Positions 4,540-23,380 are shown, counted from the stretch's first letter. The stretch: DNA of 64,000 bases from Cloacimonetes bacterium UBA5614 (GCA_002424605.1 DIKQ01000002.1:23483-87482); one strand, 5' to 3'. Numbers and translations: made by a program. The notes: a model not told the origin generated them from the sequence alone.

Positions 4540-4670
4540 TACTCCGTCCTATCTATCCGGTATGATTTTGATTTCCTTAGGGATTTATGATGAGAATCAC
4601 TTACGCTTCAATCTGAATGCAACTCTTCTGTCAATCATTTCTTTCCTTAGTTTAATACAATCCCGTCCTG

Positions 4671-4800
4671 TGTTTCCTTTATCTTTTCTTTGCCTGTTCC
4701 TTGCTTAGATGTCCCGAAGATGTCCCGAAGCCGGCCGGGTTTTCTTCGGGAGGCTTCGGGACATCTCCGCGACAACTAACTGAGGGAAAAGAGAGAAACA
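4671..4800. repeat. Element A copy 1: CT-rich leader plus modular palindrome (GATGTCCCGAA x2 ... CTTCGGGA x2)
   Basis: Near-identical to 11813-11930. Core 4697-4749 and 4754-4777 are identical by manual alignment. GATG modules start at 4708 and 4719 (11-nt period), and inverted CTTCGGG modules start at 4744 and 4754. Confidence 0.85.
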
Positions 4801-4819
4801 TATAAGAATAGAGTGCTTA

Positions 4820-5074
4820 GCAGAGTCGAATATCCCGGGCTCTGACCCGAATTCAGGACATAAAACTATACGAAAGCGGATATCTCCGTAATCGGACAGT
4901 GTTTGCATAAAGTGAAGACAGACAGTAGGATAGACTGCTTGTAGATAGGGTGTATTACGGATTCGGAGAAACCTCTTGAGCAGGAAAACCGGGATACGGA
5001 CGGCTATTGTGCTGCAAAATAGTGTGTTAAGATGTTGGAACAAAGATTGATTATACTTGACTTTGATATGATAT
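4820..5074 (+). promoter_or_regulatory. Duplicated non-coding control block (homolog of 15648-15901), including a fossil EBP-gene 3' end
   Basis: Collinear, high-identity manual alignment with the region between the EBP gene and the pseudo-receiver gene of unit 2. Confidence 0.8.
5036..5051 (+). promoter_or_regulatory. Candidate sigma-54 (-24/-12) promoter, TGGAAC-N5-TTGAT
   Basis: GG and TTG elements at the canonical spacing. Conserved in position with 15863-15878. An NtrC-type EBP is encoded in the locus. Confidence 0.45.
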
Positions 5075-5217
5075 GTGTAAGTATTGGTAATCAGTTCCAG
5101 CTATTATGAACAGGATGCATCTGCTGGATAAGAGTCCCCGGAATCGGACACAGGTGAAACTGGTTAGATCTTAGAAATCAGAATTATAAAAATAAACTAG
5201 AGAGTGAAGGAGAAGTC
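5075..5217 (+). pseudogene. Remnant of the pseudo-receiver gene (nonsense at codon 2 plus ~260-nt internal deletion)
   Basis: GTG TAA GTA TTG GTA here versus GTG AAA GTA TTG GTA at 15902. The 5' ~45 nt and 3' ~110 nt of the 15902-16327 gene are retained and the middle is missing. Confidence 0.75.
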
Positions 5218-8200
5218 ATGAAAAAGCTCGTTATAGTTTTTATGCTGTGCCTGCTGGGTGCGCTTCATGCAGAAACCCGTATAGTATCGTTAACCGATGC
5301 AAGGAGAATTGCAGACAGCAATGCCGCCATATTATGGGGCGGAAATCTCGGATCTGCAGAACCAATCCCTTACTACGGACCGGATGATAAAATCATAGCT
5401 TACCATTTCAACTATGCCATTGGCAGACCTTTTCCTGATAAACATTCTCTTCAGCAAAGAAGCGGTGAGGCACTGTCATCCGGTAACCGAGACCTGGGCT
5501 GGGGCGTGGGCGAATTTGGCAATATGGTTATCGGTGCTAATCGTAATATGCCCGTCTTTGTGGAATATTCCAAATGTCTCTCACAGCAATACGCTTATGC
5601 CCAAAAACTGGAAGAAGCAGCTTCCCGCGAGTTTCCCAAAGGATACGAACTGACCAAAACATACTATCTGGGACTGGTAGATGTCTGGTATAGAATAAAC
5701 GACGGGAATGAAACCAAATATATAAATCTTGAACCCTATACCAAGGTAAAAACAGAGACGGAATTTCGTGAGATGATAAAAGACAAGATCTTTTTCTGGG
5801 AAAGGGACAGTTTTGAGGAGGAATGGGAATACCTGCTGGATAACGGCAACACTATGAGCAGAGCAGAAGTGATGATTCCCGGTGAAGAGCTGATGCCATA
5901 CTATGAGTGGAACTATGGCTGCACACCAACTTCCGGAGCCATGCTTTTTGCCTGGTGGGATGCCTATAAAGGTTATGGTAAACTGATAAAGCACCATTCA
6001 ACCAAATGGGATCCTGTGGTTGGTCGATACACACATCACGTTCCAGATATTCAGGGTATACTGGCAAACACTATGGATACAGGTTCTGATGGCACTACTT
6101 ATTCGTGGGACATTTGTGATGGAATGGTCGATGCTGCAAGTATTGTCGGATACAACTGTGAATCTGACGGTCTTTGGGCTCTTCACCATACTGTAGCAAC
6201 CTTATTTAATGGAATTCGAAATTCAATTGATAGTGGTTATCCAATATTGGTTGACACCTGGTCACATACGATGTGTGCGGTTGGTTATGGAACCTGGCCT
6301 TCCATGGTTCTCGTGCATGACCCTAATCTACCAGCCATTAGATTTCTTTCCAGGTCCTCGTTATGGCGATACTATTGGGCAGATTTTGAACCTTTAAATG
6401 ACTTCCACTCGGCTGAGTTGAATTTTCCCAATGGCGGGACCCAGTGGGAGAATAACTTTGGCGGCGAAACTCTGATATCCGGAATCTATTATGACATTAC
6501 CTGGAGTTCCACACTCAGTCCCAATGCCTATGCCAAGATTTATTATCATGACGAGGGCGGATCGACATCCAACAGATGGTTTCCCATAACCTTATACACT
6601 CCCAATGACGGACATTACCGGTGGCTGGTTCCAACTATTCAGGGTTGTATGTACGGTATCAATACTGACTATGCCAGAGTAAAAATCGAAATCTATGATA
6701 ACAACACCCATCAATTGCTCGCCGCAGACGGGAGCTACGGCAATTTAAAAATAAAAGGCGATTACGTCATGCCCTGGTTGAATGCCGCAGGTACCAATAT
6801 CAATACCAGTAAAATTTACACCAGAATAAATCATTCGACCAATAATAACTGGGGACTGATTGCTTTCCGTGGTTCAAATAGCAACATAGACATAGAGCTT
6901 TACCAGAGTCCGGATTTTTACAATCAGCTATATACCTCGCAATCCCCTTCAAGTTTGAATTATATGCTGATAAACAACTTCCAGCAAACACCCAACGCTT
7001 ATGGAGTCAAGTTTGCTACAGATGTATCATCTTTTCAGGGTAGTGCTGCATTTGTAACATCCAATGCTTCACAAATAAGTCCATATATAACATACAATTA
7101 TGACTGGGGTAATACTGATATAGCCAAAGTTTATCAGGTTTACCTGACACCCGGTCAATATTCTATTACAATGCACAGAATTGCCGGTTTTATGGATCTT
7201 GATATAGCTCTCTATGCGCCTGGCTCGGGTGTTTATACCTATAACCAGGCAGTAGCATATTCCAATAATTACGGTACCGTTGATGATGTAATTGTTTACA
7301 GGGTTACAACTGCCGGTTATTATGCTTTGGTTGTCAGTTGCAGTTCCGAGCATAACGGAGAATACTCAATTCTTATCGAAAACGCCGGTAAATGGCTGGG
7401 GACGGTAAGCAACAACTGGTTCAACCCCGCTAATTGGGTAGGCAATACCGTGCCGAATTTAACAAACGATGTGGTAATACCTCCCGATTGTCCCAATTAT
7501 CCCATTCTTTGGTCAGGAACTTATCCCGAGATTAAGTCCATAAGGATTGAATCGAATGCTTTTCTGACCATCGGAGCCACCGAGATGAATGTCCACCAGA
7601 GCATGCAGGTCTATGGCACTATCAACATGACCTCGAACAGCAGCGTTTTGAGTGTGGGAGAAAACCTGTATTGGGGAGCCGGTTCTTCTCTGGTAGGCAG
7701 TATTTACAATTACCAGATAGTATGTTACAAAAACTGGGACTTTGGATTAGGTTCCAATATTCAGATGACTTCGGGTACCGTGGTATTCTGGGGGGACGAG
7801 GACAGCTATGTCACCACCAGTTCTGCCACTTCCAGGTTCAATAATGTGACCATAAACAAACAATACACTCTCACAGGCAGGTCTGTCATCCATAGCGGAA
7901 ACTCATCCAATGACTGGAGAGTTAACGGCAACCTCTTAATATCAAGCAGCTATTCCACCCTGCGCTCAGATTCAGAGAAAAAAATCATTTTGCTGAACCC
8001 CATTACCAACAACGGGTATATCGAACTGGATAATGGCACCCTTGAACTTACTGCCAGCTGTTCCCTTCCCTATCTATCCACTGGCAACTATCTTAACAAT
8101 CTTGTAATCAGCACTAATGCAGTCAATGCCTTGCCTTCAAATTATAAAATAGTGGGCAATCTCACCATCAACAGCGGTGGCATCGATGCCAACACCAGAA

Positions 8201-11200
8201 CCATTACCTTGTCCGGTAACTTTATAAACAATGTCGGACCTTCAGGATTTGTCAAAGGAACCAGTACCGTAATCTTTAACGGATACGGAGACCAGAGATG
8301 CACCAATGGCAATTTCCACCGCATGGAAGTTAACAAGACGACCGGCAATGTCAAATTCACGGGAACAGGTGCCATTTCAAATGTGGATATCTACGACTGG
8401 ACAACCGGCGGTATAGAAGTAAATCAGGGAGCTCTGACCATTTTTGATTTAGCGGATAACGGCTTGTATGGCACCTACAAAATGACGGGAGGTACTCTAA
8501 ACGTTAATCAGGATAACTCCCAATATACAGACCTTAATGGCAGTCTGTATATCTACAGCGGGACCATGAATGTCTATGGTGGAAACGGAAACAGCTACTG
8601 GCCATATGCAGCCAATGCCCACATAGAAATGCATGGCGGAGTGCTGGATTTCAAAAACCGCGGGATTTACGTCTACAATTCTCCGGTCTTTTCGCTGACT
8701 ACAGAGCTTTTTGGGGGCAGAATCCGCACAGCTGGAAGTTTTCTCTGTTACCGTCCGGACTTCCAGCCTGCCGGGGAGTATTACCTTGAACTTTATGGCA
8801 GTACGGATGCCAACATCTATCTGCATAGTTCCGCCTCGGTACACTCTGTAATATTCAACAAAGGCAGCAACCGTTCGGAGGCCTGTCCTCCCGGGCTTGA
8901 CCTGATAAGACGGGACGGGGTCGACTTTCCCGCAGAACTGCGCAATAGTGAAAATGACTTGACCAGAATCAATCAGGTTAACCTCATCAGCAACGTCTAT
9001 ATCTTCGGTGACCTGATTATCGAATCAGGTACCGTCAACCTGAACAGCTACACCCTGACCACTGAAAGCGATACTGATGTAATAAATGGCACCATTCTAA
9101 TGAACCAGGCATCAGCCCGGTTAGTGACCTATGGCAGATTCCAGTGGGGAGAGAATGCCACACTGAACGTCACTGCAGGTGAAATGCATTTCTATTATCA
9201 TCTTACTATAGCCGAGAATTCTGTCTTCCAGATGGGTTCCGCCACGACAGCCAGATTCTGGACTGAGTTCAGCAAAATTATCAACTATGGTGCCAACTGC
9301 CAGTTCGGCTATGTTGTGCTGGAAGACGGATGCGAACTGGAAATCCTGGACTTTCAGCCGGTTACGATTACAAGCGGCCTGATCCTCCAGGGCGAAAGCA
9401 TTCTGCAGGTCAATGGAGTCCTCAATGTCATCGGCTATGTTGTTGTCTATGAATATGCCAATATCTATATCCGGGCAAACACGACAATCGATTATTACAT
9501 CAATTTGTATGGTGTCCTGACCATAGATAACTCCACTTTAACCTGTCACAGTTACTTATATAACATTGGCGGATCTCTGGTCTTGAATAATAATGGCAGT
9601 TGCATACTTGACAGGGCATTTGACAGCACTTACCATCAGATGGATGGAGTATATATTATAAACAGCGGTGTATTTGAAGTTACGAACAACGGTGTCCAGT
9701 TTACCAACGACTCCTATGTTACCATGTATGGCGGCACCCTCCGCACCGGCTGGAATTTTTGGGCAACCATAGCCAACAGGTTTAATCCGGCTGGCGGCAG
9801 TGTGGAGTTTATCGGAGACAGAAACGCTTCCCTCTGGTGCAATAATGGCAATTACTTCCATAATCTCATCTTCAGCAAACCCGGCACCAGGAGTGTTGGG
9901 ATAAACACGGATTTGCAGATTAATGGTGATTTAATCCACCAGAGCGGTTATTCTGCTATGAACGGATACAACATCCACATCATGAGGGACGTAATTATCC
10001 ACGCAGGCAGAATGGGTGCTTCCAGCACCGACCTGACTGATATCTATGTGGGCAGGAACTGGATAAAAAATGGCGGCTCCTTTGTTGCGGGAACTAATTC
10101 ATTAAACGGCTGCACTGTGCATCTCATCAGTGCCGGTGAAAATGCCGTCCTCTCTACTGAATCATTCTATAACCTTCACATCAACAAACAGAATGCGGTC
10201 GGAAACATTGTTTCGCTGCAGCCCTCTGCTACTGTGCAGGTAAATGGCGCTCTGGACATTGAGCGGGGAAAACTGAATGTGTTGAGTAACAGCATCCTGG
10301 ATGTCAACAACCATCTGACCATCATGCCCGGTGGCGGTTTGCGCCTTAGTGATACTTATACTGGCGGAACCCTTAAACTGGCAGGAAACTTTACCGACCA
10401 GAACACCACTATGGCTGGAGGTGATGGCTTTCAGGCATTAGACGACTGCCTGGTAATTCTGGATGGAACTGCAGACCAATACTTAACCGCTAATTACCCC
10501 TGGCTGCAATTCTATCATTTGTCCGTCGACAAATCCTCCGGCAGGGTTATGCCAAACAGCAACGTGACAATCGCCAGAGAACTGCACCTTGTAAGAGGAG
10601 AGTGGCATTATGGGCAACAGAATGTGGAGTTAGCCATTGGTACAGATTTGGTCGTAGAAGCGGCTGCATCTTTCAATTATTTTACGGGTTGTGTCCGGTT
10701 TGAAAGCTGGAGGGACAGCAATATCACAATCCTTGGTACCGCTAATATGGCTGCTATCCGCATTGATAAAGGCGGCTTCAACTTCAATCTTACCGGGAAC
10801 ACCGTCATTGGCGGAGAACCGGAAATCAGCCTCTACTCCGGTATCATCAACCTGAACGGCCACACCCTTCAGTTGGATGCAGGCCGTATATACATTGGCT
10901 CTGCTGTTTCCACAGTATTTCTGCAGGCGGGTTCTGTCCTCAGTTTGGGCAATGATTTTGTGGTTGAGGTCGTCAACGGCGGCAGATTCGTCACACTGGG
11001 AACGGAAGCCAATCCGGCTCTTGTCACCAGTCATAATGGTTACTATATCTTTATTGTGTTTGATAATGGTAAAATCGGCGGAAGCTGGGGCATCTATGAA
11101 AAGATGAGTGCTGAAGGAATTTGGTTTGAACAGGCATCCAGCCCGGTTGATAATACTTACCCCTGGACTTATCCAACCTTCCGCAATGGCGCACCCGGCG

Positions 11201-11637
11201 GTTCTCTGCTGACCTTTGACGGAGATAATGTCAGCAACATTGTAATTCAAAATCCCATCTTTCCTGCCAATACCTGGGGCAGTATTTACAATGTCGAAAA
11301 GTTTTCATCAATCGGTTCCGTCACTCTGCAGAATGCTACAGGCGCTTTTGCCGGTGCAGTTTTTGAAAGTGACATGTATAACACCGTTCACTGGACTTAT
11401 GTTCTTCAACCACCACAGAACTTTAAAGTTCAAGTAATTAATAATGAATTGGTTTTTTCTTGGGATGCTGTCCCTAATGTCAACGGTTACAACTTGTACT
11501 ACTGTTCAGACCCTGATTTCTCAAGCTCTCCGGTGGGAACCGTTTCTGACGGGGTAGCTGATACGTTCTTTTCTACTCCCTTAATCTGGTTCCCTGAGCC
11601 CTATATGTTTTTCAGGGTAACTGCATTTCAGGATTAA
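5218..11637 (+). CDS. Giant secreted protein 1 (2139 aa): signal peptide, papain-like cysteine peptidase, PPC-like domain, long beta-helix repeat region, C-terminal FN3-like domain
   Basis: RBS GAAGGAG lies before the ATG. Signal peptide is MKKLVIVFMLCLLGALHA. Cys motif YGCTPTSGAM (Cys235, nt 5920-5922) and His motif SHTMCAVGYG (His350, nt 6265-6267). Repeated GNLTINSGG / LSGNFINN type strands. C-terminus has ...SWDAVPNVNGYNLYY...FFRVTAFQD. Confidence 0.9.
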   Translation: MKKLVIVFMLCLLGALHAETRIVSLTDARRIADSNAAILWGGNLGSAEPIPYYGPDDKIIAYHFNYAIGRPFPDKHSLQQRSGEALSSGNRDLGWGVGEFGNMVIGANRNMPVFVEYSKCLSQQYAYAQKLEEAASREFPKGYELTKTYYLGLVDVWYRINDGNETKYINLEPYTKVKTETEFREMIKDKIFFWERDSFEEEWEYLLDNGNTMSRAEVMIPGEELMPYYEWNYGCTPTSGAMLFAWWDAYKGYGKLIKHHSTKWDPVVGRYTHHVPDIQGILANTMDTGSDGTTYSWDICDGMVDAASIVGYNCESDGLWALHHTVATLFNGIRNSIDSGYPILVDTWSHTMCAVGYGTWPSMVLVHDPNLPAIRFLSRSSLWRYYWADFEPLNDFHSAELNFPNGGTQWENNFGGETLISGIYYDITWSSTLSPNAYAKIYYHDEGGSTSNRWFPITLYTPNDGHYRWLVPTIQGCMYGINTDYARVKIEIYDNNTHQLLAADGSYGNLKIKGDYVMPWLNAAGTNINTSKIYTRINHSTNNNWGLIAFRGSNSNIDIELYQSPDFYNQLYTSQSPSSLNYMLINNFQQTPNAYGVKFATDVSSFQGSAAFVTSNASQISPYITYNYDWGNTDIAKVYQVYLTPGQYSITMHRIAGFMDLDIALYAPGSGVYTYNQAVAYSNNYGTVDDVIVYRVTTAGYYALVVSCSSEHNGEYSILIENAGKWLGTVSNNWFNPANWVGNTVPNLTNDVVIPPDCPNYPILWSGTYPEIKSIRIESNAFLTIGATEMNVHQSMQVYGTINMTSNSSVLSVGENLYWGAGSSLVGSIYNYQIVCYKNWDFGLGSNIQMTSGTVVFWGDEDSYVTTSSATSRFNNVTINKQYTLTGRSVIHSGNSSNDWRVNGNLLISSSYSTLRSDSEKKIILLNPITNNGYIELDNGTLELTASCSLPYLSTGNYLNNLVISTNAVNALPSNYKIVGNLTINSGGIDANTRTITLSGNFINNVGPSGFVKGTSTVIFNGYGDQRCTNGNFHRMEVNKTTGNVKFTGTGAISNVDIYDWTTGGIEVNQGALTIFDLADNGLYGTYKMTGGTLNVNQDNSQYTDLNGSLYIYSGTMNVYGGNGNSYWPYAANAHIEMHGGVLDFKNRGIYVYNSPVFSLTTELFGGRIRTAGSFLCYRPDFQPAGEYYLELYGSTDANIYLHSSASVHSVIFNKGSNRSEACPPGLDLIRRDGVDFPAELRNSENDLTRINQVNLISNVYIFGDLIIESGTVNLNSYTLTTESDTDVINGTILMNQASARLVTYGRFQWGENATLNVTAGEMHFYYHLTIAENSVFQMGSATTARFWTEFSKIINYGANCQFGYVVLEDGCELEILDFQPVTITSGLILQGESILQVNGVLNVIGYVVVYEYANIYIRANTTIDYYINLYGVLTIDNSTLTCHSYLYNIGGSLVLNNNGSCILDRAFDSTYHQMDGVYIINSGVFEVTNNGVQFTNDSYVTMYGGTLRTGWNFWATIANRFNPAGGSVEFIGDRNASLWCNNGNYFHNLIFSKPGTRSVGINTDLQINGDLIHQSGYSAMNGYNIHIMRDVIIHAGRMGASSTDLTDIYVGRNWIKNGGSFVAGTNSLNGCTVHLISAGENAVLSTESFYNLHINKQNAVGNIVSLQPSATVQVNGALDIERGKLNVLSNSILDVNNHLTIMPGGGLRLSDTYTGGTLKLAGNFTDQNTTMAGGDGFQALDDCLVILDGTADQYLTANYPWLQFYHLSVDKSSGRVMPNSNVTIARELHLVRGEWHYGQQNVELAIGTDLVVEAAASFNYFTGCVRFESWRDSNITILGTANMAAIRIDKGGFNFNLTGNTVIGGEPEISLYSGIINLNGHTLQLDAGRIYIGSAVSTVFLQAGSVLSLGNDFVVEVVNGGRFVTLGTEANPALVTSHNGYYIFIVFDNGKIGGSWGIYEKMSAEGIWFEQASSPVDNTYPWTYPTFRNGAPGGSLLTFDGDNVSNIVIQNPIFPANTWGSIYNVEKFSSIGSVTLQNATGAFAGAVFESDMYNTVHWTYVLQPPQNFKVQVINNELVFSWDAVPNVNGYNLYYCSDPDFSSSPVGTVSDGVADTFFSTPLIWFPEPYMFFRVTAFQD

Positions 11638-11760
11638 AAGCACCCATGTATAATTACTGTGATGGTTGTTGTAAGCACAATGGATTTCTTCTGAAATCGC
11701 TTTTGTGCATGATAAGATTGTGATTCTAAGCATAGTGTAACAACTATCAAATCAAACTGC

Positions 11761-11797
11761 GGCTGCCGCGCTCTCCTTGCCGGCAGCCGTTTTTTTT
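11761..11797 (+). terminator. Rho-independent terminator of giant gene 1
   Basis: GGCTGCCG ... CGGCAGCC stem followed by T8. Same sequence as 22792-22828. Confidence 0.85.
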
Positions 11798-11812
11798 CTA
11801 TACTAATAAAAG

Positions 11813-11930
11813 TTGTTTCCTGCTTCTTCCTTGCTTAGATGTCCCGAAGATGTCCCGAAGCCGGCCGGGTTTTCTTCGGTTATCTTCGGGACATCTCCGC
11901 GACAACTCACTGAGAAAGTAAAGAGAAACA
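11813..11930. repeat. Element A copy 2
   Basis: tgtttcctgcttcttccttgcttaGATGTCCCGAAGATGTCCCGAAGccggccgggttttCTTCGGttatCTTCGGGACATCtccgcgacaac, near-identical to copy 1. Confidence 0.85.
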
Positions 11931-11971
11931 GATAAGTTGACTGGTTACATCCAATGCTGTGCAAATCAAGA

Positions 11972-12000
11972 TTGACATAATATCTAAAAGAGATTAATTA
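11972..12000 (+). promoter_or_regulatory. Candidate sigma-70-type promoter for the kinase/EBP operon
   Basis: TTGACA, 17 nt, then TAATTA, about 55 nt upstream of the ATG at 12054. Confidence 0.3.
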
Positions 12001-14306: not shown

Positions 14307-15673
14307 ATACGCAACACATTCTGATTCTGGACGACGAACCCCGCCTGAGAGAGGAATTACTTGAGTTCCTGACTGATGAAGGATACAAATGCTTTGAAGC
14401 CAGCTCTCCTTCCGAAGCTATGAAAGTAATCAGGGCAAACAGGATAGACATAGCCATAGTGGACATCAATCTGCCTGAAAAAGATGGCATTGCAGTCTTG
14501 AAGGAAATCAAGGAATATGACGAGGATATTGAAGTCCTGATGATAACCGGACAGGGAGATATGGATCTTGCCATCCGTTCGATGCGGTCCGGAGCTGCTG
14601 ATTTCTTTAACAAACCCATTCAGCCAGAAGAAGTCCTGCAGGCAGTGGAACGGAGCAAGCGTTTCATCAATCTCACCCGGCGCTGCCAGCATTTACGCAA
14701 CAATTATGACAGGGTGTTTCATGAACTGCAGGATAATCTGGGATTGCAGATGCTGGGCACCAGTAAAGCCATCAGGGAGATAAAGTCCGATATTGAGACC
14801 GCAGCAAAAAACCCTGACACAGCAGTCCTGATCAGCGGTGAAAGCGGTACGGGAAAGGAACTGGTTGCTCGCAGCATCCATCACCTGAGCGCCCGGAAAC
14901 ATCACTATTTCTATGCGGTTAATTGCGCTGCTATTCCGGAAAACCTGTTTGAAAGCGAGTTCTTTGGATATACCAAAGGTGCCTTCACAGGCGCTGCCGC
15001 CAATAAGCAGGGCTGGTTTGAAATTGCCGACAAAGGAACGCTGTTTTTAGACGAAATCGGCGATATGCAGCCCTTTATGCAGGCGAAACTGCTGCGTGTG
15101 ACGGAAGACGGAGTGGTTCACAGATTGGGGAGCAACAGGGATATCCAGGTCAATGTCAGATTGATTTCCGCCACTAACCGGGATATAGCAGATTTGGTTG
15201 ATAAGGGGATTTTCAGGCAGGACCTCTATCATCGCCTGAACACTATACAGATACATATCCCTCCCCTGAGGGAACGCCGGGAAGACATCCCTGTCCTGGT
15301 GGAACACTTCCTGCGTCATTTTACCCAAAAGACCGGAAAAGCCATCCCGGAAATTGAATCAGGCCTTTTGGACAAATTGATGCAATATCCCTTCAAAGGC
15401 AATGTCAGGGAGTTGAAGAATATGCTGGAAAGGGCTGTCATCCTCTGCGATGGCTCCCGGCTCAGCCAAAAGCACTTTAACTCGCTTGGCAACGACAAAT
15501 CAAACCACCATTCACCATCTGGCGAACCTGAAAATCTGAACTTGGAATCCCTGGAAAAAGAAGCGGTGAAAAAAGCTCTGCAAAGCTGCGGCAACAACAA
15601 ACAGCAGGCGGCAAAACTACTCAATATTACCTGGCAGTCACTGGAACGCAGAATCAAGAAACACGGGCTCTGA
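14303..15673 (+). CDS. NtrC-family sigma-54-dependent response regulator (REC, AAA+, Fis-type HTH)
   Basis: REC domain (ILILDDE, VDINLP). Walker A GESGTGKE, sigma-54 contact loop GAFTGA, Walker B LFLDEIG. C-terminal HTH AAKLLNITWQSLERRIKK. ATGA overlap with the kinase gene. Confidence 0.92.
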   Translation: MNTQHILILDDEPRLREELLEFLTDEGYKCFEASSPSEAMKVIRANRIDIAIVDINLPEKDGIAVLKEIKEYDEDIEVLMITGQGDMDLAIRSMRSGAADFFNKPIQPEEVLQAVERSKRFINLTRRCQHLRNNYDRVFHELQDNLGLQMLGTSKAIREIKSDIETAAKNPDTAVLISGESGTGKELVARSIHHLSARKHHYFYAVNCAAIPENLFESEFFGYTKGAFTGAAANKQGWFEIADKGTLFLDEIGDMQPFMQAKLLRVTEDGVVHRLGSNRDIQVNVRLISATNRDIADLVDKGIFRQDLYHRLNTIQIHIPPLRERREDIPVLVEHFLRHFTQKTGKAIPEIESGLLDKLMQYPFKGNVRELKNMLERAVILCDGSRLSQKHFNSLGNDKSNHHSPSGEPENLNLESLEKEAVKKALQSCGNNKQQAAKLLNITWQSLERRIKKHGL

Positions 15674-15862
15674 GCCGAACTCAGGATAGATAGCTATACG
15701 AAAGCGGATACCTCCGTAATCGGATAGTGTTAGCATAAAGTGATGACAGACAGCAGGATAGACTGCATTTCTGCGGATGTTTGACGGAATCGGATAGTCT
15801 TTTTGAGGCGGAAATCCGGGACGCGGACAGCTATTGTGCTGCAATATAGTGTGTTAAGGTTT

Positions 15863-15878
15863 TGGAACAAAGGTTGTT
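15863..15878 (+). promoter_or_regulatory. Candidate sigma-54 (-24/-12) promoter, TGGAAC-N5-TTGTT
   Basis: Lies about 25 nt upstream of the GTG at 15902, which is preceded by RBS GAGGTGA. Positionally conserved with 5036-5051. Confidence 0.45.
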
Positions 15879-15901
15879 AATACTAATAGCAGAGGTGAGA
15901 T

Positions 15902-16327
15902 GTGAAAGTATTGGTAACCAAGTCCAGCCTTTATGAACGGGATGAACTGCAGGAGTTTTTCCAGGACCATTCCTGGGAGCCCACTTTTGCAGAAGAGTCC
16001 AAAACGATGTATCAGATGCTGTCGCGGGAGGATTTTGATACAGTCCTGTTTAATCTCAGCAGTACGGATGACTTTGCTGCCATCAGGTACATTAACAGGA
16101 ACTATCCGAATATCCGGGTGATAGTTTCCACCGATGACAGGCTGGTATCGACCATCCGCAATGTGCGGGCAGGCAAGTTCACGGTAACGGGCCATCTGGA
16201 AAAGATGAATCTGCTGGAAAAGCTGTTCCCGGAATCGGACACAGGCGAAACTGCTGATACAGGAAAGTCGGAAATAGAAGAAGTCAGAAATATAAAAATC
16301 AACAAGAGAGTGAAGGAGAAGTTATGA
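15902..16327 (+). CDS. Stand-alone pseudo-receiver (REC-like fold lacking phospho-acceptor residues)
   Basis: GTG start after GAGGTGA. By eye it aligns to CheY-like receivers, but the acidic pair is TK (KVLVTKSS), the phospho-Asp position is Asn (VLFNLSS), and the conserved Lys is absent. ATGA overlap with giant gene 2. Confidence 0.65.
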   Translation: MKVLVTKSSLYERDELQEFFQDHSWEPTFAEESKTMYQMLSREDFDTVLFNLSSTDDFAAIRYINRNYPNIRVIVSTDDRLVSTIRNVRAGKFTVTGHLEKMNLLEKLFPESDTGETADTGKSEIEEVRNIKINKRVKEKL

Positions 16328-19300
16328 GAAAGCTCGTTATAGTTTTTTTGCTGTGCCTGCTGGGTACGCTTTATGCTGAAACCCGCATAGTGTCGTTAAC
16401 CGATGCAAGGAGAATTGCAGACAGCAATGCTGCCATATTATGGGGCGGCAATCTCGGTTCTGCAGAGCCAATACCTTACTACGGACCGGATGATAAAATC
16501 ATTGCTTATCATTTCAACTATGCCATCGGCAGACCTTTTCCTGATAAACATTCTCTTCAACAAAGAAGCGGAGAGGCATTTTCATCAGGTAACCGAGATC
16601 TTGGCTGGGGCGTGGGCGAATTTGGCAATATGGTTATCGGTGCCAATCGCGGCATGCCAGTGTTCATAGAATATGGCAAAGGGCTTTCCTACATATTGGC
16701 TATGGGAAACAAGCTAGAGGAAGTTGCCCGTAAAGAATTTCCTGCAGGATACACTCTGGAAAAAACCTATTATCTTGGTTTGGTCCATATCTGGCACAAG
16801 ATAACCTCCGGCACAGAGGTGCGCTATATTAATCTGCAGCCATATACAAAGGTTATTGGAGAATCTGAGTTCCGGGAAATGGTAAGCACCAGAGCTTTCT
16901 TTTGGGAACGCGGTAATTTTGATGAAGAATGGACCACTTTTTTAGACAATGATGGGACCATCGGACGCTCTGATGTCTGGGTTGTTGGTGAAGAATATAT
17001 GCCGTTTTACGAATGGAGTTATGGCTGCACTCCCACTGCAGCAGCAATGATATGCGCCTGGTGGGACCACTACAAAGGTTATTCCCGTCTGATAGATTAT
17101 CATATTTCACGAGGAGACCCTGTACAGGATGGCTATGATCACCATGTTCCCACTATACAAGGCTTACTTGCTGCTCATATGGATACTGATCCATCTACCG
17201 GAGGAACAGCGGTCAGTGATATCAGTGATGGTATTATAAATGCAGTGGAATCTTTAGGCTATGAATGCTCTTCCGACGGTTTAATTGGCTGGAACGAAGA
17301 CAGCAACGATGTTTATTGGGAAATCATTGATCAGATTGATGGTAATCATCCCTGTATGGTCGGAATTGATAGACATTCTATAGCTGGTGTGGGGTACAAT
17401 CTGACAACCCGGTCAATAATTATTCATGATTCTAACCGTTCTTATGCCTACCAAATTACCCGTTCAATGCTCGAAAGATATCAGTGGGTGTCCCTTCAGC
17501 CTATCAGTAACAATTACTATCTGGAAATCACCTACCCCAATGGAGGCGAAGTCTGGGGTTCAAATATTGGTGGCGGAACTCTTATTTCAGGTGTCTATTA
17601 CGACATTACCTGGAATGGAATGTTGAGTTCAGAGACATATGCCAAGCTATATTACCATCACGAGGGAGGACAAAATCCAGATCGCTGGTTTCCAATCACA
17701 ACATTTACTCCCAATGACGGGCATTATCAATGGCTGGTACCCATCCCGCAAGATTGTGTATTTGGGATTAATACTGATTACAGTAGGGTTAAGATCGAAA
17801 TATATGATTTGAATACCCATGAAATGCTAGCCGCTGATGGCAGTTTTGGCAATTTCAAAACAGGGGGAAGTTTTACTGTTCCTGAACTTACTTTGAATGC
17901 AACTCATTTATTTGGTGGCAATAACCTTTTTGTCGCTCCACAAACTGAAACAGGTACCTGGGGCGCAGTTATTGTAAAAGAAGATCCATTAATGTTGGGA
18001 ACAAAGATTGAATTATTTAATGGTCCGGACTTTTATCAGGAGTATGTAGAATCAATATCCAGCGAGAAAATCAATTATGTTATGATTAACAATCATCAGT
18101 TGCTACCCAGAGAATATGGAGTCAGAATATCAAATATGTATAGTACAGATAATGTATCAACATGGGCATCTAATTCCTCAATACCCGGTCTAATATTGAA
18201 TCCCGGGACTCCGCACACCGATATTTGGACTTCAGGTGTTTTAGGCAAAGTATTTAATGTGTATCTAAATCCCGGGAGTTACTTTTTTGAAATGACAATG
18301 GATTCTTATATGAATCTGGATTTTGCTTTGTTTACTCCATTCGGAGCAGGTGGTATCTATACTTATAATCAAGCAGCTGCTTACTCCAGAAATTCACTTT
18401 TTGGGGGTAGTGAAGGATTTTTCTACACAGTCCCCGAAGCTGGATACTATGGTCTGATTGTTACAGCAAGGGTAAATGGCGTTGGCACTTATAACATCAA
18501 CATCCACAATCCCGGTAAATGGCTGGGAACTGCCGATACCAACTGGTTCAATCCTGCCAACTGGATTGGCAATTCCGTGCCGAATTTTACAAACGATGTG
18601 GTAATACCAGGCGGATGTCCCAATTATCCCATTATTCTGACAGGAACTTATCCTGAGATAAAGTCTATATCTGTTGAAGCGAATGCTTTACTCACCATAG
18701 GCGCTACCGAAATGAATGTGCACCAGAGCATGCAGGTCTATGGCATTATCAACATGACCTCGAACAGCAGCGTTTTGAGTGTGGGTGAAAACCTGTATTG
18801 GGGAGCCGGTTCTTCTCTGGTAGGCAGTATTTACAATTACCAGATAGTATGTTACAAAAACTGGGACTTTGGATTAGGTTCCAATATTCAGATGACTTCG
18901 GGAACCGTAGTATTCTGGGGAGATCAGGACAGCTATGTCACCACCAGTTCTGCCACTTCCAAGTTTAATAATGTTACCCTGAATAAAATCACGGCAGGGC
19001 GTTCAGTAATCCATAGTGAATATTCCAGCAATGACTGGAGGATATACGGCAACCTGACAATCTCAAATTCCAACACCACGTTAAGTTCGGAAACAGATAA
19101 GAAAATCCAGATATATAGCAGTATTACCAATAATGGGCATATCCAGTTGGATAACGGAACAGTCGATTTCAAGATAGGAAGCTCATTGCCTGTCCTCAAT
19201 ACAGGCGATTACTTTTATGGCTTGACCATCAGCACTACTACCGCTTTATCTCTGCCTTCCAATTACAGCATCAGTGGTGACCTCACTATCTCCAGTGGAG

Positions 19301-22300
19301 GCATCAATGCCAACACCAGAGCCATTACCTTGTCCGGCAACTTCATAAACAATGTGGGACCTGCAGGGTTTGTCAAAGGCACCAGTACCGTTATCTTTAA
19401 CGGCGGCGGAGACCAGAGATGCACCAATGGCAATTTCTATCGTATGGAGATTGCAAGCCAGTACTGCAATGTTATATTCACGGGAGCCGGAGCAACATCA
19501 ACCTGCGATATCTATGACTGGACGGCCGGTTCATTGGAAGTGGAGCAGGGAACTCTAAACATTTTAGATTTAGCGGATAACGGCTTGTATGGCAATTACA
19601 TGTTAACGGGTGGTACTCTTAATGTTAATCAGGATAACTCCCAATACACAGACCTTAATGGCAGTCTGTATATCTACAGTGGGACCATGAATGTCTATGG
19701 CGGAAACGGCAACAGCTACTGGCCATATGCAGCCAATGCCCATATTGAAATGCACGGCGGAGTGCTGGATTTCAGGAATCGCGGCATCTATATTTATAAT
19801 TCTCCCACGTATACACTGACCACAGAGCTCAGGGGTGGTATAATCCGTACAGCCGGAAGCTTCCTCTGTTACAGGCCGGATTTCTGGTTTGCTGATGAGC
19901 ATTACATTGAGCTCTACGGGTCTACAGATGCCAATATCTATCTGCACAGTTCCGCCGGTTTTCACTCATTTATCTTCAACAAAGGTTCTGCCCGGGCGGA
20001 TGCCTGCCCTGCCGGCCTTGACCAGATAGAGAGGGAAGGCGTGGAACTGCCGGTTGAACTGCGTAGCAGCAACAGCAGCGCTACCCGGGCAAATACCGTT
20101 AACCTCATCAGCAACGTCTATATCTTCGGTGACCTGATTATTGAATCAGGTACCGTCAACCTGAACAGCTACAACCTGACCACTGAAAGCGATTCTGATG
20201 TCATGGGTGGCACCATTATTATGAACCAGGCATCAGCCCGGTTAGTGACTTATGGCAGATTCCAGTGGGGAGAGAATGCCGTTCTCAATGCTACGGCAGG
20301 TGAGATGCATTTCTATCACAGTCTGACTTTTGCTGAGGACTCAGTCTTCCAGATGGGTACGGGTACTACAGCCAGATTCTGGACTGAGTTCAATACCATT
20401 GCCAGTTACGCAGACATCTGCCAGTTTGGGAATGTTGTCCTGGAAGACGACTGCGAAATGGAAATCCTGAATTATCAGCCCATCACGATAACGGGTAATA
20501 TGTCTCTGCTTGGTGAAAGCATCCTTCGGGCAGATGGCGTTATCAACATTAGTGGCAGCTTTACGGACAATGAATATGCCTACACGTATATCCAGACAGA
20601 TATGACGGTTAATCAGAACATCCTGCTATACGGTGTCCTGACTATAGAAAACTCCACTCTCACCTGTCATGGCAACTTCCAGAACCTTGCCGGAAGCCTT
20701 GTCCTTAGCAATAATGGTAACTGCATAATTGACAGACCTTTTGACAGCACCTACCAGTTGATTGAGGGAGGCTTGATTATCAGTAGCGGTGTGTTTGAAG
20801 TCACTAACAATGGTATCCAGTTTACCAATGACGCCTATCTTGCTATGGATGGCGGCACCATCCGCACCGGCTGGAATTTTGTGGCAACCAGTTCCAATGT
20901 CTTCAATCCCGATGGCGGAAGCGTGGAGTTTATCGGCGACAGGAATGCCACAATTGAATGCAACAACGGCAATTATTTCTATGATATCGTCTTCAACAAA
21001 CCCATCACAACCAATGTTGTTTCGGTTCTGACTGACCTGAGTGTAGGGCTTGACTTCACCGTACTGGGTGGAAATCCGGCTTTAAACGGTAACAACATTT
21101 ACATTAGTCGTGATATGATAATCAATGGTGGCAGGGTCTCTGCCTCCAGTAACTCTCTTACGGACATCTATGTCGCCAGGAACTGGATTAACAATGTCGG
21201 AACAACTGCGTTTTCCGAGGGCACCACTCCGTTAAACTATTCCACCGTACATTTCTACGGTGCAGAAAACTCCATTGTATCGACCGAGACGTTTTATGTG
21301 TTGCGTATCAATAAAAGCACCTCAGGCAGCTACACTGTGACTCCTCAGGCCGGGGCAACGATTACTGCCAAGGGTCCGGTGGAGATTGTAAGGGGTAATT
21401 TGCAGCTCAGGGATAATTGCATCCTTGATGTTAATAGCAGTATCAATATCTCTGCTGGCGGGGGCTTGGACCTTAGTGACACATCGTCTTACGGAACGCT
21501 TTATCTGACGGGAAATCTTTATGATGCAAATACTACTTTCGGCTCAGGAGTCGGGTTTGATGCCATTGCCGAATGCCATGTTATCCTTGATGGCGGTGGA
21601 GACCAGATTATTGACGCTAACCGCAGCAATGTTCAGTTCTACAATCTCACAGTCAACAAACCCTCCGGAAGGGTTATGCCCCATAAAAATGTCTCCACCT
21701 CCGGCTACCTTCATCTGATTTCAGGTGAATGGAATTATGGAGTGGCAGGCTTGGTCAAATTAATCATGACCAACCTGATTATAGAAGCTGCTGCTTCCTT
21801 TACTGATAATACCGGCATAGTTCTTTTTGATGGCTGGATTGTCAGCGAAGCAAGAATTCTTGGCAATGCCTCGCTGGGAACTATCAACATTGACAAAGGT
21901 GCGTATAGCTTCAACCTGAGCGGGAATGTGTCCTTGGCAGGAACCACCACCCTGAACCTGATCAGCGGTAATATCAATTTAAACGGGTACACTCTGCAGA
22001 TGACTGGCACCCTAAATCTGGCAAACTATCTTTATCTGCAGCCAAGCTCCGTCCTCAGCCTGGGAAACAACTCCGTGCTGAATGTCAACAACGGCGGCAG
22101 GTTCATTACGCTGGGAACGCAAGCCAATCCTGCCCTGGTCACCAGTCATGACGGCTATTATGCCTTTAACGTGAACGATTATGGGAAAATCGGCGGTAGC
22201 TGGGGAATCTACGAAAAGATGAATATCAATGGAATTCTCTTTGCTCAAAGGACAAGCATTGACAGCGAATATCCCATGCAGTACCCGACCTTCCGCAACG

Positions 22301-22752: not shown

Positions 22753-22791
22753 TTATCTGCTTAATAAGCAGTTAACTCCAAGCAAAACCAA

Positions 22792-22828
22792 GGCTGCCGC
22801 GCTCTCCTTGCCGGCAGCCGTTTTTTTT
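22792..22828 (+). terminator. Rho-independent terminator of giant gene 2
   Basis: GGCTGCCG ... CGGCAGCC stem followed by T8. Confidence 0.85.
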
Positions 22829-22842
22829 ATACTGAAGAATAT

Positions 22843-22945
22843 TGTTTCCTGCTTCTCCCTTTATGAGATGTCCCGAAGATGTCGCGGAGATGGCCGGGTT
22901 TTCTTCGGGAGGCTTCGGGGCATCTTCGGGACATCTAAGTAAGCG
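22843..22945. repeat. Element A copy 3 (rearranged variant, 3 + 3 modules)
   Basis: Same CT-rich leader (tgtttcctgcttctccc). GATG modules start at 22867, 22878 and 22889. CTTCGGG modules start at 22903, 22913 and 22924. There is a perfect 16-bp pairing between 22866-22881 and 22921-22936. Confidence 0.8.
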
Positions 22946-23050
22946 GGGATTGAGCAATATTCATGCGGGAAAATAAATCTGCTTGACAATGTTTCCTCAT
23001 TATATCAAGGTGATAAATGTAAGATAATTAGTCTAACCATCAACAGATTT

Positions 23051-23380
23051 ATGTATCGCAAGGGGGATATGATGAACGTTGAGCTCACCTATGATGGCAA
23101 GACCGCAGTAATGAAGATTGACGGTATTCTGACCAGTGATAACAGCTATATATTGCAGGACAGGCTGAATGAAGTGCTGAAAAGCGAAGCCTCGGTACTG
23201 GAGATGGATTTGCTGGAATGCCGTAACATCAGCAGTACCGGTATCGGCAAAATTTTACTTTTTTACAAAGACTTCATAGCCAAAGGCGGGGAAATAGAGG
23301 TCGTTCGCTGTTCCCACGGCGTTTACGAGCTGTTCTCCATGTTAAAACTGAATCAGCTTTTCACGGTGAACCTGGGATAG
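23051..23380 (+). CDS. STAS-domain anti-sigma-factor antagonist (SpoIIAA/RsbV-like)
   Basis: ~100-aa STAS pattern (MKIDGILTSDNSYILQDRL...ISSTGIGKILLF...VRCSHGVYELFSMLKLNQLF). The true start is probably ATG 23069 or 23072, after AAGGGGGA. Confidence 0.75.
   Translation: MYRKGDMMNVELTYDGKTAVMKIDGILTSDNSYILQDRLNEVLKSEASVLEMDLLECRNISSTGIGKILLFYKDFIAKGGEIEVVRCSHGVYELFSMLKLNQLFTVNLG

What the first reader, a model, noticed from the sequence alone, without database searches (positions are those of the whole stretch)
11813..11930. Element A: a ~110-nt modular palindrome present at all three boundaries of the duplicated units
- Three copies exist: 4671-4800, 11813-11930 and 22843-22945.
- Each starts with a CT-rich leader (TGTTTCCTGCTTCTTCC...).
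- The leader is followed by two or three tandem GATGTCCCGAA-type modules with an 11-nt period, a GC-rich centre (CCGGCCGGG), and then two or three inverted CTTCGGGACATC modules.
- The element can fold into a hairpin or cruciform longer than 20 bp.
- Copies 2 and 3 lie about 15 nt downstream of the giant-gene terminators.
- Its position at every junction makes it the obvious recombination substrate for the duplication.
- The phased modules on one helix face also look like an array of protein-binding sites. Alternatively it may be a REP/MITE-like family.
Basis: seen in the sequence. Interest (0 to 1): 0.6.

Follow-up and report, generated by a model that had tools for sequence, protein, structure and literature searches.

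The report
Dispersed modular palindromic repeat family
The three copies belong to a family of about 115-base hairpin-forming DNA repeats scattered at least 57 times between genes of this uncultured bacterium, a familiar kind of bacterial "junk-like" repeat, though with no known relative and no identifiable enzyme that moves it.

Summary
Element A lies at about 4684-4800, 11814-11930 and 22843-22959, built as described, and folds stably. The three copies are not special to the duplication: the 1.94-Mb, 69%-complete assembly holds 57 copies on 9 contigs. Nearly all are intergenic, in either orientation, typically just after a terminator and/or upstream of an outward -35 box. BLAST finds nothing outside this species. 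A covariance model finds diverged, full-length relatives in 20 of 97 genomes of the same bacterial family and none in 12 sister families. Between lineages both arms change together; a phased GAT/ATC box stays invariant. Within this genome the arms are systematically imperfect. Module L1 matches R1, one 11-nt step out of register, in 27 of 56 copies. It is not a RAYT-linked REPIN: RAYT genes carry other repeats, and two copy-rich genomes lack any Y1 transposase. It is not a demonstrable MITE either: no target duplication, no partner transposon. Copy 2 is a chimera of copy 3 (left) and copy 1 (right), which supports unequal crossing-over as the origin of the duplication. Verdict: a new family of a known kind of interspersed palindromic repeat; mover unknown.

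The parts
4684..4800 (+). Element A copy 1. CT-rich left end; modules GATGTCCCGAAG at 4708-4719 and 4719-4730; centre 4735-4749; inverted module at 4754-4765; then CTCCGCGACAAC and a GA-rich right end.
   Evidence: 113 bits. Boundaries taken from the family profile.
11814..11930 (+). Element A copy 2, the flagged copy. It is a chimera: the left flank and first ~17 nt resemble copy 3; the remainder, plus ~7 nt beyond the right end, resembles copy 1.
   Evidence: 112.4 bits. Folds.
22843..22959 (+). Element A copy 3. Its second left module is GATGTCGCGGAG; its right modules are CTTCGGGGCATC and TTCGGGACATC.
   Evidence: 124.7 bits. Orthologous copies in four other assemblies differ at the module sites.
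11760..11797 (+). Intrinsic terminator of giant gene 1: a 9-bp GC-rich stem plus T8, ending 16 nt before copy 2.
   Evidence: Read from the sequence. Duplicated at 22785-22831 (D14). Terminator scan.
22792..22828 (+). Intrinsic terminator of giant gene 2, ending 14 nt before copy 3.
11972..11977 (+). Outward-facing TTGACA (-35-like box) 42 nt right of copy 2, upstream of the TPR-histidine-kinase gene (12054-14306).
22983..22988 (+). Outward-facing TTGACA 24 nt right of copy 3, upstream of the STAS-domain gene (23051-23380).
4629..4634 (-). Outward-facing TTGACA (TGTCAA on the + strand) about 50 nt left of copy 1, upstream of the HlyD-like gene on the minus strand (3067-4539).
4820..11800 (+). 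Duplicated unit 1 (relic of the activator gene's tail, leader, giant gene 1, terminator). It is bounded on the left by copy 1 and on the right by copy 2.
   Evidence: D1-D15. ORFs.
15648..22831 (+). Duplicated unit 2. The left boundary lies inside the end of the sigma-54 activator gene and has no element. The right boundary is followed by copy 3.

Best explanation
Element A is one member of a lineage-restricted family of non-coding, roughly 95-118-nt modular palindromes. These are interspersed repeats that behave like REP/REPIN or MITE elements. Shown: whole palindromes, never single arms, are scattered through the genome in the gaps between transcription units. Inferred: they were spread as complete units by a trans-acting enzyme that is not encoded next to them. 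Inferred: that enzyme acts on the folded, single-stranded hairpin. The grounds are that both arms change together between lineages while a phased GAT/ATC box and certain mismatches or bulges are kept, and that no target duplication is left behind. Shown: the core is far better conserved than the edges. Inferred: this reflects selection on the core or gene conversion among copies. Shown for copy 2 (a chimera) and inferred for the event: in this window the copies supplied homology for unequal crossing-over between copy 1 and copy 3. That would have produced a tandem duplication of the kinase-activator-giant-gene block, after which the first kinase-activator pair was deleted.
For: Family and spread: 57 copies on 9 of 14 contigs with unrelated flanks. 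Modules and centre occur nowhere outside these loci, so there are no single arms.
Position: nearly all copies are intergenic, in all gene configurations and both orientations. Outward TTGACA boxes number 36 against 4 inward within 150 nt, at variable distance. A terminator-like hairpin facing the element lies within 100 nt of 29 copies, against 12 copies with one facing away.
Structure: every copy folds, at DNA dG -18 to -36 kcal/mol; shuffle z-scores for the three window copies and the consensus are -4.9 to -11.
Deep conservation of the palindrome: the covariance model finds full-length relatives in 20 of 97 genomes of the same family, across 5 of 11 genera, with dozens of copies in some. It finds none in 82 genomes of 12 sister families.
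Between lineages: 86.7% of cells pair, against 70.7 +/- 1.2 in shuffles. 27 of 36 pairs have changes on both sides (0 of 500 shuffles reach this), while GAT/ATC is invariant.
No consistent target duplication.
Persistence: orthologous copies are retained in other assemblies of the species and between two congeneric species about 82-85% identical.
Core against edge identity: 86% against 53%.
Recombination: copy 2 is chimeric.
Against: No mobilising gene was identified. No empty site or insertion polymorphism was seen at the 4 loci compared within the species. No two copies are 95% or more identical overall; the maximum is 91.6%. Current mobility is therefore not shown.
The ends are the least conserved part of the element, the opposite of what a transposase that recognises ends would give.
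Within this genome pairing is lower than in shuffles: 75.7% against 78.1 +/- 0.4, and double changes number 55 against 117 +/- 10. The hairpin is therefore not being optimised here.
Arm-to-arm covariation across lineages would equally fit a symmetric double-stranded binding site.
The genome is a 69%-complete MAG and the gene calls used were crude ORFs.
Confidence: 0.55

Rival explanations
1. Host-useful DNA element. The phased GATG/CATC boxes, one per helical turn and mirrored on both arms, would be an array of binding sites for a nucleoid, topology or roadblock protein. The array would insulate neighbouring transcription units and would be kept by selection rather than by transposition.
For: Copies sit almost exclusively between terminators and promoters. 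The 11-nt phasing and the GAT/ATC box are invariant across lineages. The core is conserved far above the edges. Copies are retained at orthologous sites in strains and in a sister species. No mobilising enzyme was found.
Against: Distribution is patchy: 20 of 97 genomes of the family have hits, congeners have few (4-6 weak hits in two of seven) or none, and copy number ranges from 0 to 40 or more within one genus. The module sequence differs in each lineage, which is unusual for a site read by a conserved host protein. Distance to promoters and terminators varies from 0 to about 60 nt.
Confidence: 0.2
2. A true REPIN moved by a RAYT (Y1 HUH transposase) that is unlinked, highly diverged, or sits in the unassembled 31% of the genome.
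For: The architecture is REPIN-like: two inverted arms, a hairpin, an extragenic position, no target duplication and long vertical persistence (PMC3337134). The genome does encode two RAYT-like proteins: NF047646 at 88.6 bits (over its 80-bit cut-off) and 76.5 bits (just under it).
Against: Both RAYT-like genes are flanked by their own, different repeats of 2-7 copies. No element lies within 1.5 kb of any RAYT-like gene in four genomes. G021 (99% complete, at least 37 copies) and G097 (93% complete, 29 copies) have no Y1_Tnp hit. Y1 is present in 16 of 21 element-bearing genomes and in 60 of 77 element-free genomes, so there is no association. The conservation pattern is the reverse of REPINs: here the centre is conserved and the ends are variable. 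There are no singlets.
Confidence: 0.08
3. A classical MITE: an internally deleted transposon moved in trans by a DDE transposase that recognises its terminal inverted repeats.
For: It is small, non-coding, multi-copy and inverted-repeat in structure. DDE_Tnp_1 genes exist in 4 of 5 copy-rich genomes, two of them within 0.6-1.5 kb of an element.
Against: No consistent target-site duplication of 4 nt or more. No pair of arms is separated by a coding region in G000 or G014. The ends are the least conserved part. G014 has about 25 copies but no DDE_Tnp_1 hit. The transposase loci examined share no ends with the element.
Confidence: 0.07
4. An RNA-level element. Read-through or own-promoter transcripts would fold into a very stable hairpin that blocks exonucleases, is cut by RNase III, or acts as a small RNA.
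For: The RNA folds are very stable: -42.7 to -73.4 kcal/mol, z -4.9 to -11.6. Many G-U-compatible positions lie on one strand. Copies sit just downstream of terminators.
Against: There is no orientation preference relative to genes: 16 opposite against 9 same in tandem contexts. Most copies lie outside the predicted transcription units. No U-run follows the hairpin. There is no Rfam match.
Confidence: 0.1

Closest known systems
REPINs / REP sequences with RAYT transposases (Pseudomonas, Enterobacteria; PMC3116915, PMC3337134)
   Same: About 90-110 nt. Two inverted arms form a long hairpin. Extragenic, tens to hundreds of copies, no target duplication, lineage-specific sequence, long vertical persistence.
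   Different: No cognate RAYT flanked by the repeat, and no association with Y1 genes across 98 genomes. The centre is the most conserved part and the ends the least, whereas in REPINs the REP ends are conserved and the spacer is free. There are no singlets. The arms are built of tandem 11-nt modules.
BIMEs (bacterial interspersed mosaic elements) of E. coli (from my own knowledge)
   Same: A mosaic of a few short module variants in alternating orientation, an extragenic position, and an association with ends of transcription units.
   Different: BIMEs are clusters of REP units with defined linker motifs and known partners (IHF, gyrase, Pol I). Here the unit is a single fixed-size palindrome with an 11-nt module period and no sequence similarity. 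Partners are unknown.
BOX elements of Streptococcus pneumoniae and ERIC/IRU of enterobacteria (from my own knowledge)
   Same: Orphan, modular (boxA-boxB(n)-boxC) or imperfect-palindrome intergenic repeats of about 100-130 nt, with a variable number of internal modules, stable predicted folds and no identified transposase.
   Different: No sequence similarity and a different phylum. BOX and ERIC are usually co-transcribed with neighbouring genes. Element A mostly lies between a terminator and the next promoter.
Correia / NEMIS elements of Neisseria and other DDE-derived MITEs (from my own knowledge)
   Same: About 100-150 nt with an inverted-repeat structure, in intergenic positions and at high copy number.
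   Different: Correia elements have sharply conserved 26-bp terminal repeats and a TA target duplication. Element A has fuzzy ends and no detectable duplication or parent element.
Integron attC sites such as Vibrio cholerae repeats (from my own knowledge)
   Same: Imperfect palindromes of about 60-140 nt. The structure, with conserved unpaired bases, is kept while the sequence drifts, and the site is recognised as folded single-stranded DNA.
   Different: attC sites lie in one array, each behind a cassette and in one orientation, and carry RYYYAAC/GTTRRRY boxes. Element A is dispersed, lies in both orientations, and ends in CCTGC.../...GCAGG.

Membership tests
REPIN / REP (RAYT-mobilised) | Two inverted arms able to form a hairpin; extragenic; multi-copy | tested here: met
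   57 copies, nearly all intergenic. All fold at -18 to -36 kcal/mol as DNA.
REPIN / REP (RAYT-mobilised) | A cognate RAYT gene flanked by copies of the same repeat | tested here: not met
   The two RAYT-like genes of G000 are flanked by other repeats. No model hit lies within 1.5 kb of the 12 RAYT-model (NF047646) hit loci in G011, G014 and G098 or the two RAYT-like genes of G000. Caveat: G000 is 69% complete.
REPIN / REP (RAYT-mobilised) | The repeat population co-occurs with a Y1/RAYT gene | tested here: not met
   G021 and G097 are copy-rich but have no Y1_Tnp hit. Y1 is present in 16 of 21 element-bearing and 60 of 77 element-free genomes.
REPIN / REP (RAYT-mobilised) | Conserved REP ends with a free (only structure-constrained) spacer; decaying singlets present | tested here: not met
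   The centre and inner modules are the most conserved, and the outer 16 nt the least (86% against 53%). No single arms in G000 or G014.
MITE (DDE transposon derivative) | Target-site duplication flanking each copy | tested here: inconclusive
   There is no duplication at a consistent position. Direct repeats of 6 nt or more occur in 13 copies against 4.6 expected, but at scattered offsets. Duplications of 2-3 nt cannot be judged because the ends are fuzzy.
MITE (DDE transposon derivative) | A longer autonomous element with the same terminal repeats | tested here: not met
   No module or arm occurs outside complete elements in G000. All 49 arms in G014 are paired 46 nt apart or lie next to a diverged partner. 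The DDE_Tnp_1 loci share no ends. Caveat: draft genomes.
MITE (DDE transposon derivative) | Presence/absence polymorphism with precise empty sites | tested here: inconclusive
   The element is present at all 4 loci in other assemblies of the species. Sister-species sites are too diverged to define an empty site.
Integron attC site | Arrayed behind cassettes in one orientation; R boxes RYYYAAC/GTTRRRY at the ends | tested here: not met
   Copies are dispersed over 9 contigs in both orientations. The ends read CCTGCTTC.../...GAAGCAGG.
Intrinsic (rho-independent) terminator | A GC-rich hairpin immediately followed by a U-run | tested here: not met
   The T-run lies in the loop (CCGGGTTTTCTTCGG). 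The 3' side of the hairpin is GA-rich on either strand. Separate canonical terminators precede copies 2 and 3.
Any curated Rfam RNA family | Match at the gathering score | tested here: not met
   No match in the window at gathering thresholds. At E up to 10 there are only chance hairpin hits, all at 17.5 bits or less.

The most novel reading that the evidence does not exclude
The family is not a passive transposon relic. It would be a structure-specific system new to this bacterial family. A protein other than a Y1/RAYT enzyme would recognise GATG/CATC boxes phased one helical turn apart on a slipped hairpin or cruciform that carries a deliberate 11-nt bulge. That protein would either propagate the element or use it as an insulator between transcription units. 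Intra-element recombination between the arms would flip the centre, giving the module-permuted (flip/flop) variants.
Probability: 0.2. Interest if true: 0.7.

Novelty: new member of a known kind. Interest (0 to 1): 0.4.

Why it matters
Interspersed palindromic repeats are known mainly from Proteobacteria and Firmicutes. This is a well-defined family in an uncultured lineage; earlier scan notes call it Cloacimonadota/Cloacimonadaceae, which I did not verify. It matters practically in three ways. The element breaks short-read assemblies. It marks the gaps between transcription units. In this window it supplies the homology that explains how the giant secreted-protein locus was duplicated.

It matters conceptually because it combines three features with no link to a RAYT or any other transposase found here. 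First, the palindrome is maintained by compensating changes across genera. Second, mismatches are deliberately kept within a genome. Third, the core is better conserved than the ends. This makes it a tractable case for asking what propagates or maintains orphan bacterial repeats.

Tried and rejected
- **Known RNA families.** Rfam at gathering and at permissive thresholds gave nothing meaningful.
- **Plasmid and phage collections.** blastn found no match.
- **Exact-pattern scans of genome and metagenome collections.** The strict pattern gave 0 hits. The degenerate pattern gave 19 single hits in unrelated taxa that lack the rest of the element, so they are chance or tandem 11-mers.
- **Species-restricted reading.** A BLAST-level search of 40 relatives found none, which first suggested a species-restricted element. 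The covariance model overturned that reading.
- **RAYT hypothesis.** Rejected on linkage and on phyletic association.
- **IS110 and TnpB.** Absent from five copy-rich genomes.
- **DDE_Tnp_1.** Present in 4 of 5 copy-rich genomes, but with no shared ends.
- **Target-site duplication.** None consistent.
- **Insertion into a pre-existing CT/GA palindrome.** No empty-looking sites were found.
- **Orientation against replication strand.** No association with GC skew: Fisher p = 0.79; a local switch on contig C7 is not reproduced on C14.
- **Empty sites.** Not found within the species. Not resolvable between species.
- **Faster evolution of the element than its flanks.** Not supported at the STAS locus: 12-13% divergence in both.
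- **Searching the long metagenome contigs of the same species.** Not possible.
- **Naming the organism from protein clusters.** No names were returned.

Full report
**What is in the window.** The three stretches were read directly. All share the same plan:
- a CT-rich left end (TTTCCTGCTTCTTCC);
- two or three tandem 11-nt modules beginning with GATG;
- a centre, CCGGGTTTTCTTCGG;
- two or three inverted modules ending in CATC;
- a GA-rich right end.

The repeat finder groups them as one family at 4691-4806, 11821-11936 and 22850-22965, at 89% and 77% identity. A covariance model built later scores them at 113-125 bits and finds no further copy in the window. GATGTCCCGAAG with up to one mismatch occurs nine times in the window, all inside the three copies; 0.36 are expected by chance. 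From the profile of all genomic copies, conservation extends 46-51 nt either side of the 15-nt centre. That gives about 4684-4800, 11814-11930 and 22843-22959. Copies 2 and 3 begin 16 and 14 nt after the T-runs of the giant-gene terminators. As single strands they fold well beyond shuffled controls. DNA energies are -25.7 to -29.3 kcal/mol (z -4.9 to -6.1). RNA energies are -42.7 to -61.6 kcal/mol.

**It is a genome-wide family.** The window's assembly (G000; 1.94 Mb, 14 contigs, 69% complete) holds 57 copies on nine contigs. All are 80-140 nt and have unrelated flanks. The module and the centre occur nowhere else in the assembly, so there are no single arms and no arms separated by a gene. 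By a crude ORF map:
- 47 copies lie between ORFs: 25 tandem, 11 convergent and 11 divergent contexts;
- 10 overlap a doubtful long ORF;
- relative to tandem genes, 16 are opposite and 9 are co-oriented, so there is no strong strand preference.

The flanks show a pattern. Exact TTGACA boxes pointing away from the element occur 36 times within 150 nt, against 4 pointing inward, at variable distances of 7-60 nt or more. A terminator-like hairpin plus T-run facing the element lies within 100 nt of 29 copies, against 12 copies with one facing away; several of those 12 are bidirectional. The elements therefore mostly occupy the untranscribed gap between one unit's terminator and the next unit's promoter. 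The three window copies do exactly this.

**Architecture and variation within the genome.** Every copy folds as DNA (-18 to -36 kcal/mol), but in different registers. The commonest arrangement of the variable heptamers is A (TCCCGAA), B (CCGCGGA) on the left arm and, read as reverse complement from the centre outward, A, B (TCGCGGA) on the right arm. The module order is therefore not mirrored. As a result:
- L1 is perfectly complementary to R1, one 11-nt step out of register, in 27 of 56 copies;
- the in-register partners are perfect in only 7 (L1:R2) and 5 (L2:R1) copies.

The best folds therefore carry an 11-nt bulge on one side. On the in-register structure, 75.7% of cells pair, which is fewer than in all 500 shuffles (78.1 +/- 0.4). 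Double-sided changes number 55 against 117 +/- 10. Within this genome, variation thus preserves mismatches rather than repairing them. I regard centre inversion by recombination between the arms as possible, not shown.

Conservation falls from the core outwards. Mean pairwise identity is 86% for columns 18-92 and 53% for the outer 16+16 nt. No two copies reach 95% overall.

**Distribution beyond the genome.** BLAST-level searches found nothing in 40 relatives, including seven congeners. They also found nothing in plasmids or phages, and exact-pattern scans found nothing genuine. A covariance model of 56 copies changed this picture.
- It finds full-length matches (1-118, up to 78 bits) in 20 of 97 other genomes of the same taxonomic family, in 5 of 11 genera.
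G011 and G021 reach that cap, and G014, G097 and G098 give 34, 29 and 21 matches.
- A sample of 82 genomes from 12 other families of the order gave none at E of 1e-6 or lower.

The relatives keep the plan: CT-rich end, 11-nt modules, a small T-loop hairpin, mirrored modules, GA-rich end. Their modules differ, however: GATGTGGCTAT in G014, CTCGGTGAT in G011 and G021, GATGACGTGGA in G097.

Across these lineages:
- 86.7% of cells pair, against 70.7 +/- 1.2 in shuffles;
- 27 of 36 pairs have changes on both sides;
- the covariation score is 0.51 against 0.23; none of the 500 shuffles reaches any of these three observed values;
- slid controls pair at 39-48%;
- a GAT/ATC box in mid-arm is invariant.

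Two caveats apply: that alignment is fitted to the model, and it counts both strands of each palindrome. In G014 the arms are in register and mostly identical. All 49 arms are paired at a fixed 46-nt offset or sit next to a diverged partner. The core-over-edge contrast recurs there: 91-94% against 68%.

**Is it mobile, and by what?**

*In favour of past spread.* Dozens of copies have unrelated flanks. Copy numbers within one genus run from about 1-7 (G087-G090) to 40 or more (G011, G021).

*Against recent activity.*
- The element is present, nearly unchanged, at all four loci compared in other assemblies of the species.
- It is retained in the orthologous intergenic region at both loci compared between G011 and G021, whose flanking sequences at those loci are about 82-85% identical.
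- Short-read contigs often end inside the element, as expected of a repeat.
- Sister-species sites are too diverged to define empty sites. One such site, upstream of a conserved TTGACA promoter, carries the element in G011 and G021, other sequence in G087, a different long palindrome in G089, and nothing in G090.
- No consistent target duplication exists.

*The RAYT idea was tested and failed.*
- G000 has two RAYT-like genes, at 88.6 bits (over the 80-bit cut-off of NF047646) and 76.5 bits (just under it). Each is flanked by its own, different repeats of 2-7 copies.
- No element lies within 1.5 kb of any RAYT-like gene in G000, G011, G014 or G098.
- G021 (99% complete) and G097 (93% complete) are copy-rich yet have no Y1_Tnp hit.
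- Y1 genes occur in 16 of 21 element-bearing genomes and 60 of 77 element-free genomes.

*Other transposases.* IS110 and TnpB signatures are absent from five copy-rich genomes. DDE_Tnp_1 genes occur in four of the five but share no ends with the element. The mover is therefore unknown.

The between-lineage compensation, the retained imperfections and the missing duplication make a folded single-strand intermediate the most economical guess. This is inference, and symmetric duplex binding would explain the compensation equally well.

**Role in the duplication.**
- The two units are 4820-11800 and 15648-22831.
- Elements lie left of unit 1, right of unit 1 and right of unit 2.
- The left boundary of unit 2 lies inside the end of the sigma-54 activator gene (14303-15673) and has no element.

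A three-way alignment shows that copy 2 is a chimera. Its upstream terminator, spacer and first ~17 nt match copy 3. From TCCTTGCTTAGATG onward it matches copy 1, through ...AGAGAAACA-ATAAG, about 7 nt beyond the family's usual end.

This is the joint expected from unequal crossing-over between an element upstream of the kinase gene (copy 1) and the one downstream of the giant gene (copy 3). That event gives element - kinase - activator - unit - hybrid element - kinase - activator - unit - element. A later deletion would then have removed the first kinase-activator pair, leaving only the last 26 nt of the activator gene, which begin 14 nt from the end of copy 1. Two events explain the layout. 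Gene conversion between neighbouring copies could mimic the chimera, so I rate this as supported, not proven.

A second paralogous pair on contig C14 shares a 428-nt tract at 95.8% identity. The tract covers the element, the terminator and the gene's 3' end, while the gene bodies are 66-70% identical.

**Comparison with known systems.** In behaviour it is closest to REPINs and to orphan repeats such as BOX, ERIC and BIMEs. It fails the defining REPIN tests: RAYT linkage and co-occurrence, conserved ends with a free spacer, and singlets. It does not meet the MITE tests: target duplication and a parent element. It is not an attC site, an intrinsic terminator or any Rfam family. I therefore file it as a new family of the known kind "bacterial interspersed palindromic repeat", with an unidentified partner.

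The taxon name (uncultured Cloacimonadota/Cloacimonadaceae) comes from earlier scan notes and was not verified here. A literature search found no described repeat family in that group.

Noticed in passing
L031:1100-1942 (G000 contig C14, about 694.6-695.4 kb): A RAYT-like gene (L031:1198-1827, 209 aa, HUH motif HLH, NF047646 88.6 bits) is bracketed by two direct copies of a ~48-nt double-hairpin repeat, GATGACAGCAACCTGAGGTTGCTGCGGCAAGCAGGAGCTTGCCACCCC. The repeat occurs only at these two places in the assembly.
   Followed up: partly
L032:1200-2270 (G000 contig C14, about 262.9-263.9 kb): A second RAYT-like gene (L032:1417-2088, minus strand, 223 aa, 76.5 bits) is flanked on both sides by tandem GTTGAGCAACGTAGCAGT units and by a GCGCAGGACTCCGTTCCTGCGAAA hairpin. 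These have 5-7 copies in the genome. It is a separate low-copy REP family.
   Followed up: partly
G000 contig C14: 464606-465033 versus 469279-469706 (outside the window): Two adjacent large minus-strand paralogous genes share a 428-nt tract at 95.8% identity that covers element A, the terminator and the gene's 3' end. The gene bodies are only 66-70% identical. This looks like gene conversion or a recent exchange anchored at the element, and parallels the giant-gene pair in the window.
   Followed up: partly
L106:2870-3000 (G089), compared with L076, L104, L107 and L108: The intergenic site upstream of a conserved gttcTTGACAaaaa promoter carries a different insert in each congeneric species. 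G011 and G021 have element-A relatives. G087 has unrelated sequence. G089 has a different long perfect palindrome (TTGCCCATTAACCACCCTTGTCTC...GAGACAAGGGTGGTTAATGGGCAA). G090 has nothing.
   Followed up: partly
L057, L060-L062, L064 (Logan short-read contigs of the same species): Several public short-read contigs end inside element A, about 40-60 nt into it. The repeat is thus a recurrent assembly breakpoint for this organism.
   Followed up: no
L112-L131 (G014): In G014 the two arms are in register and mostly identical (TTGTGGCTATGATGTGGCTAT). The 25-nt centre occurs as two mutually reverse-complementary forms (GCCGCCCTATGATTCATGGGGCGGC and GCCGCCCCATGAATCATAGGGCGGC). With perfectly symmetric arms, these may simply mark the element's orientation on the chromosome.
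   Followed up: partly
G000 contig C7, about 36-317 kb: Element orientation switches from mostly minus (6 of 7 copies) to all plus (5 of 5) near 180 kb, where cumulative GC skew also turns. The pattern is not reproduced on contig C14, and overall there is no association (p = 0.79).
   Followed up: yes
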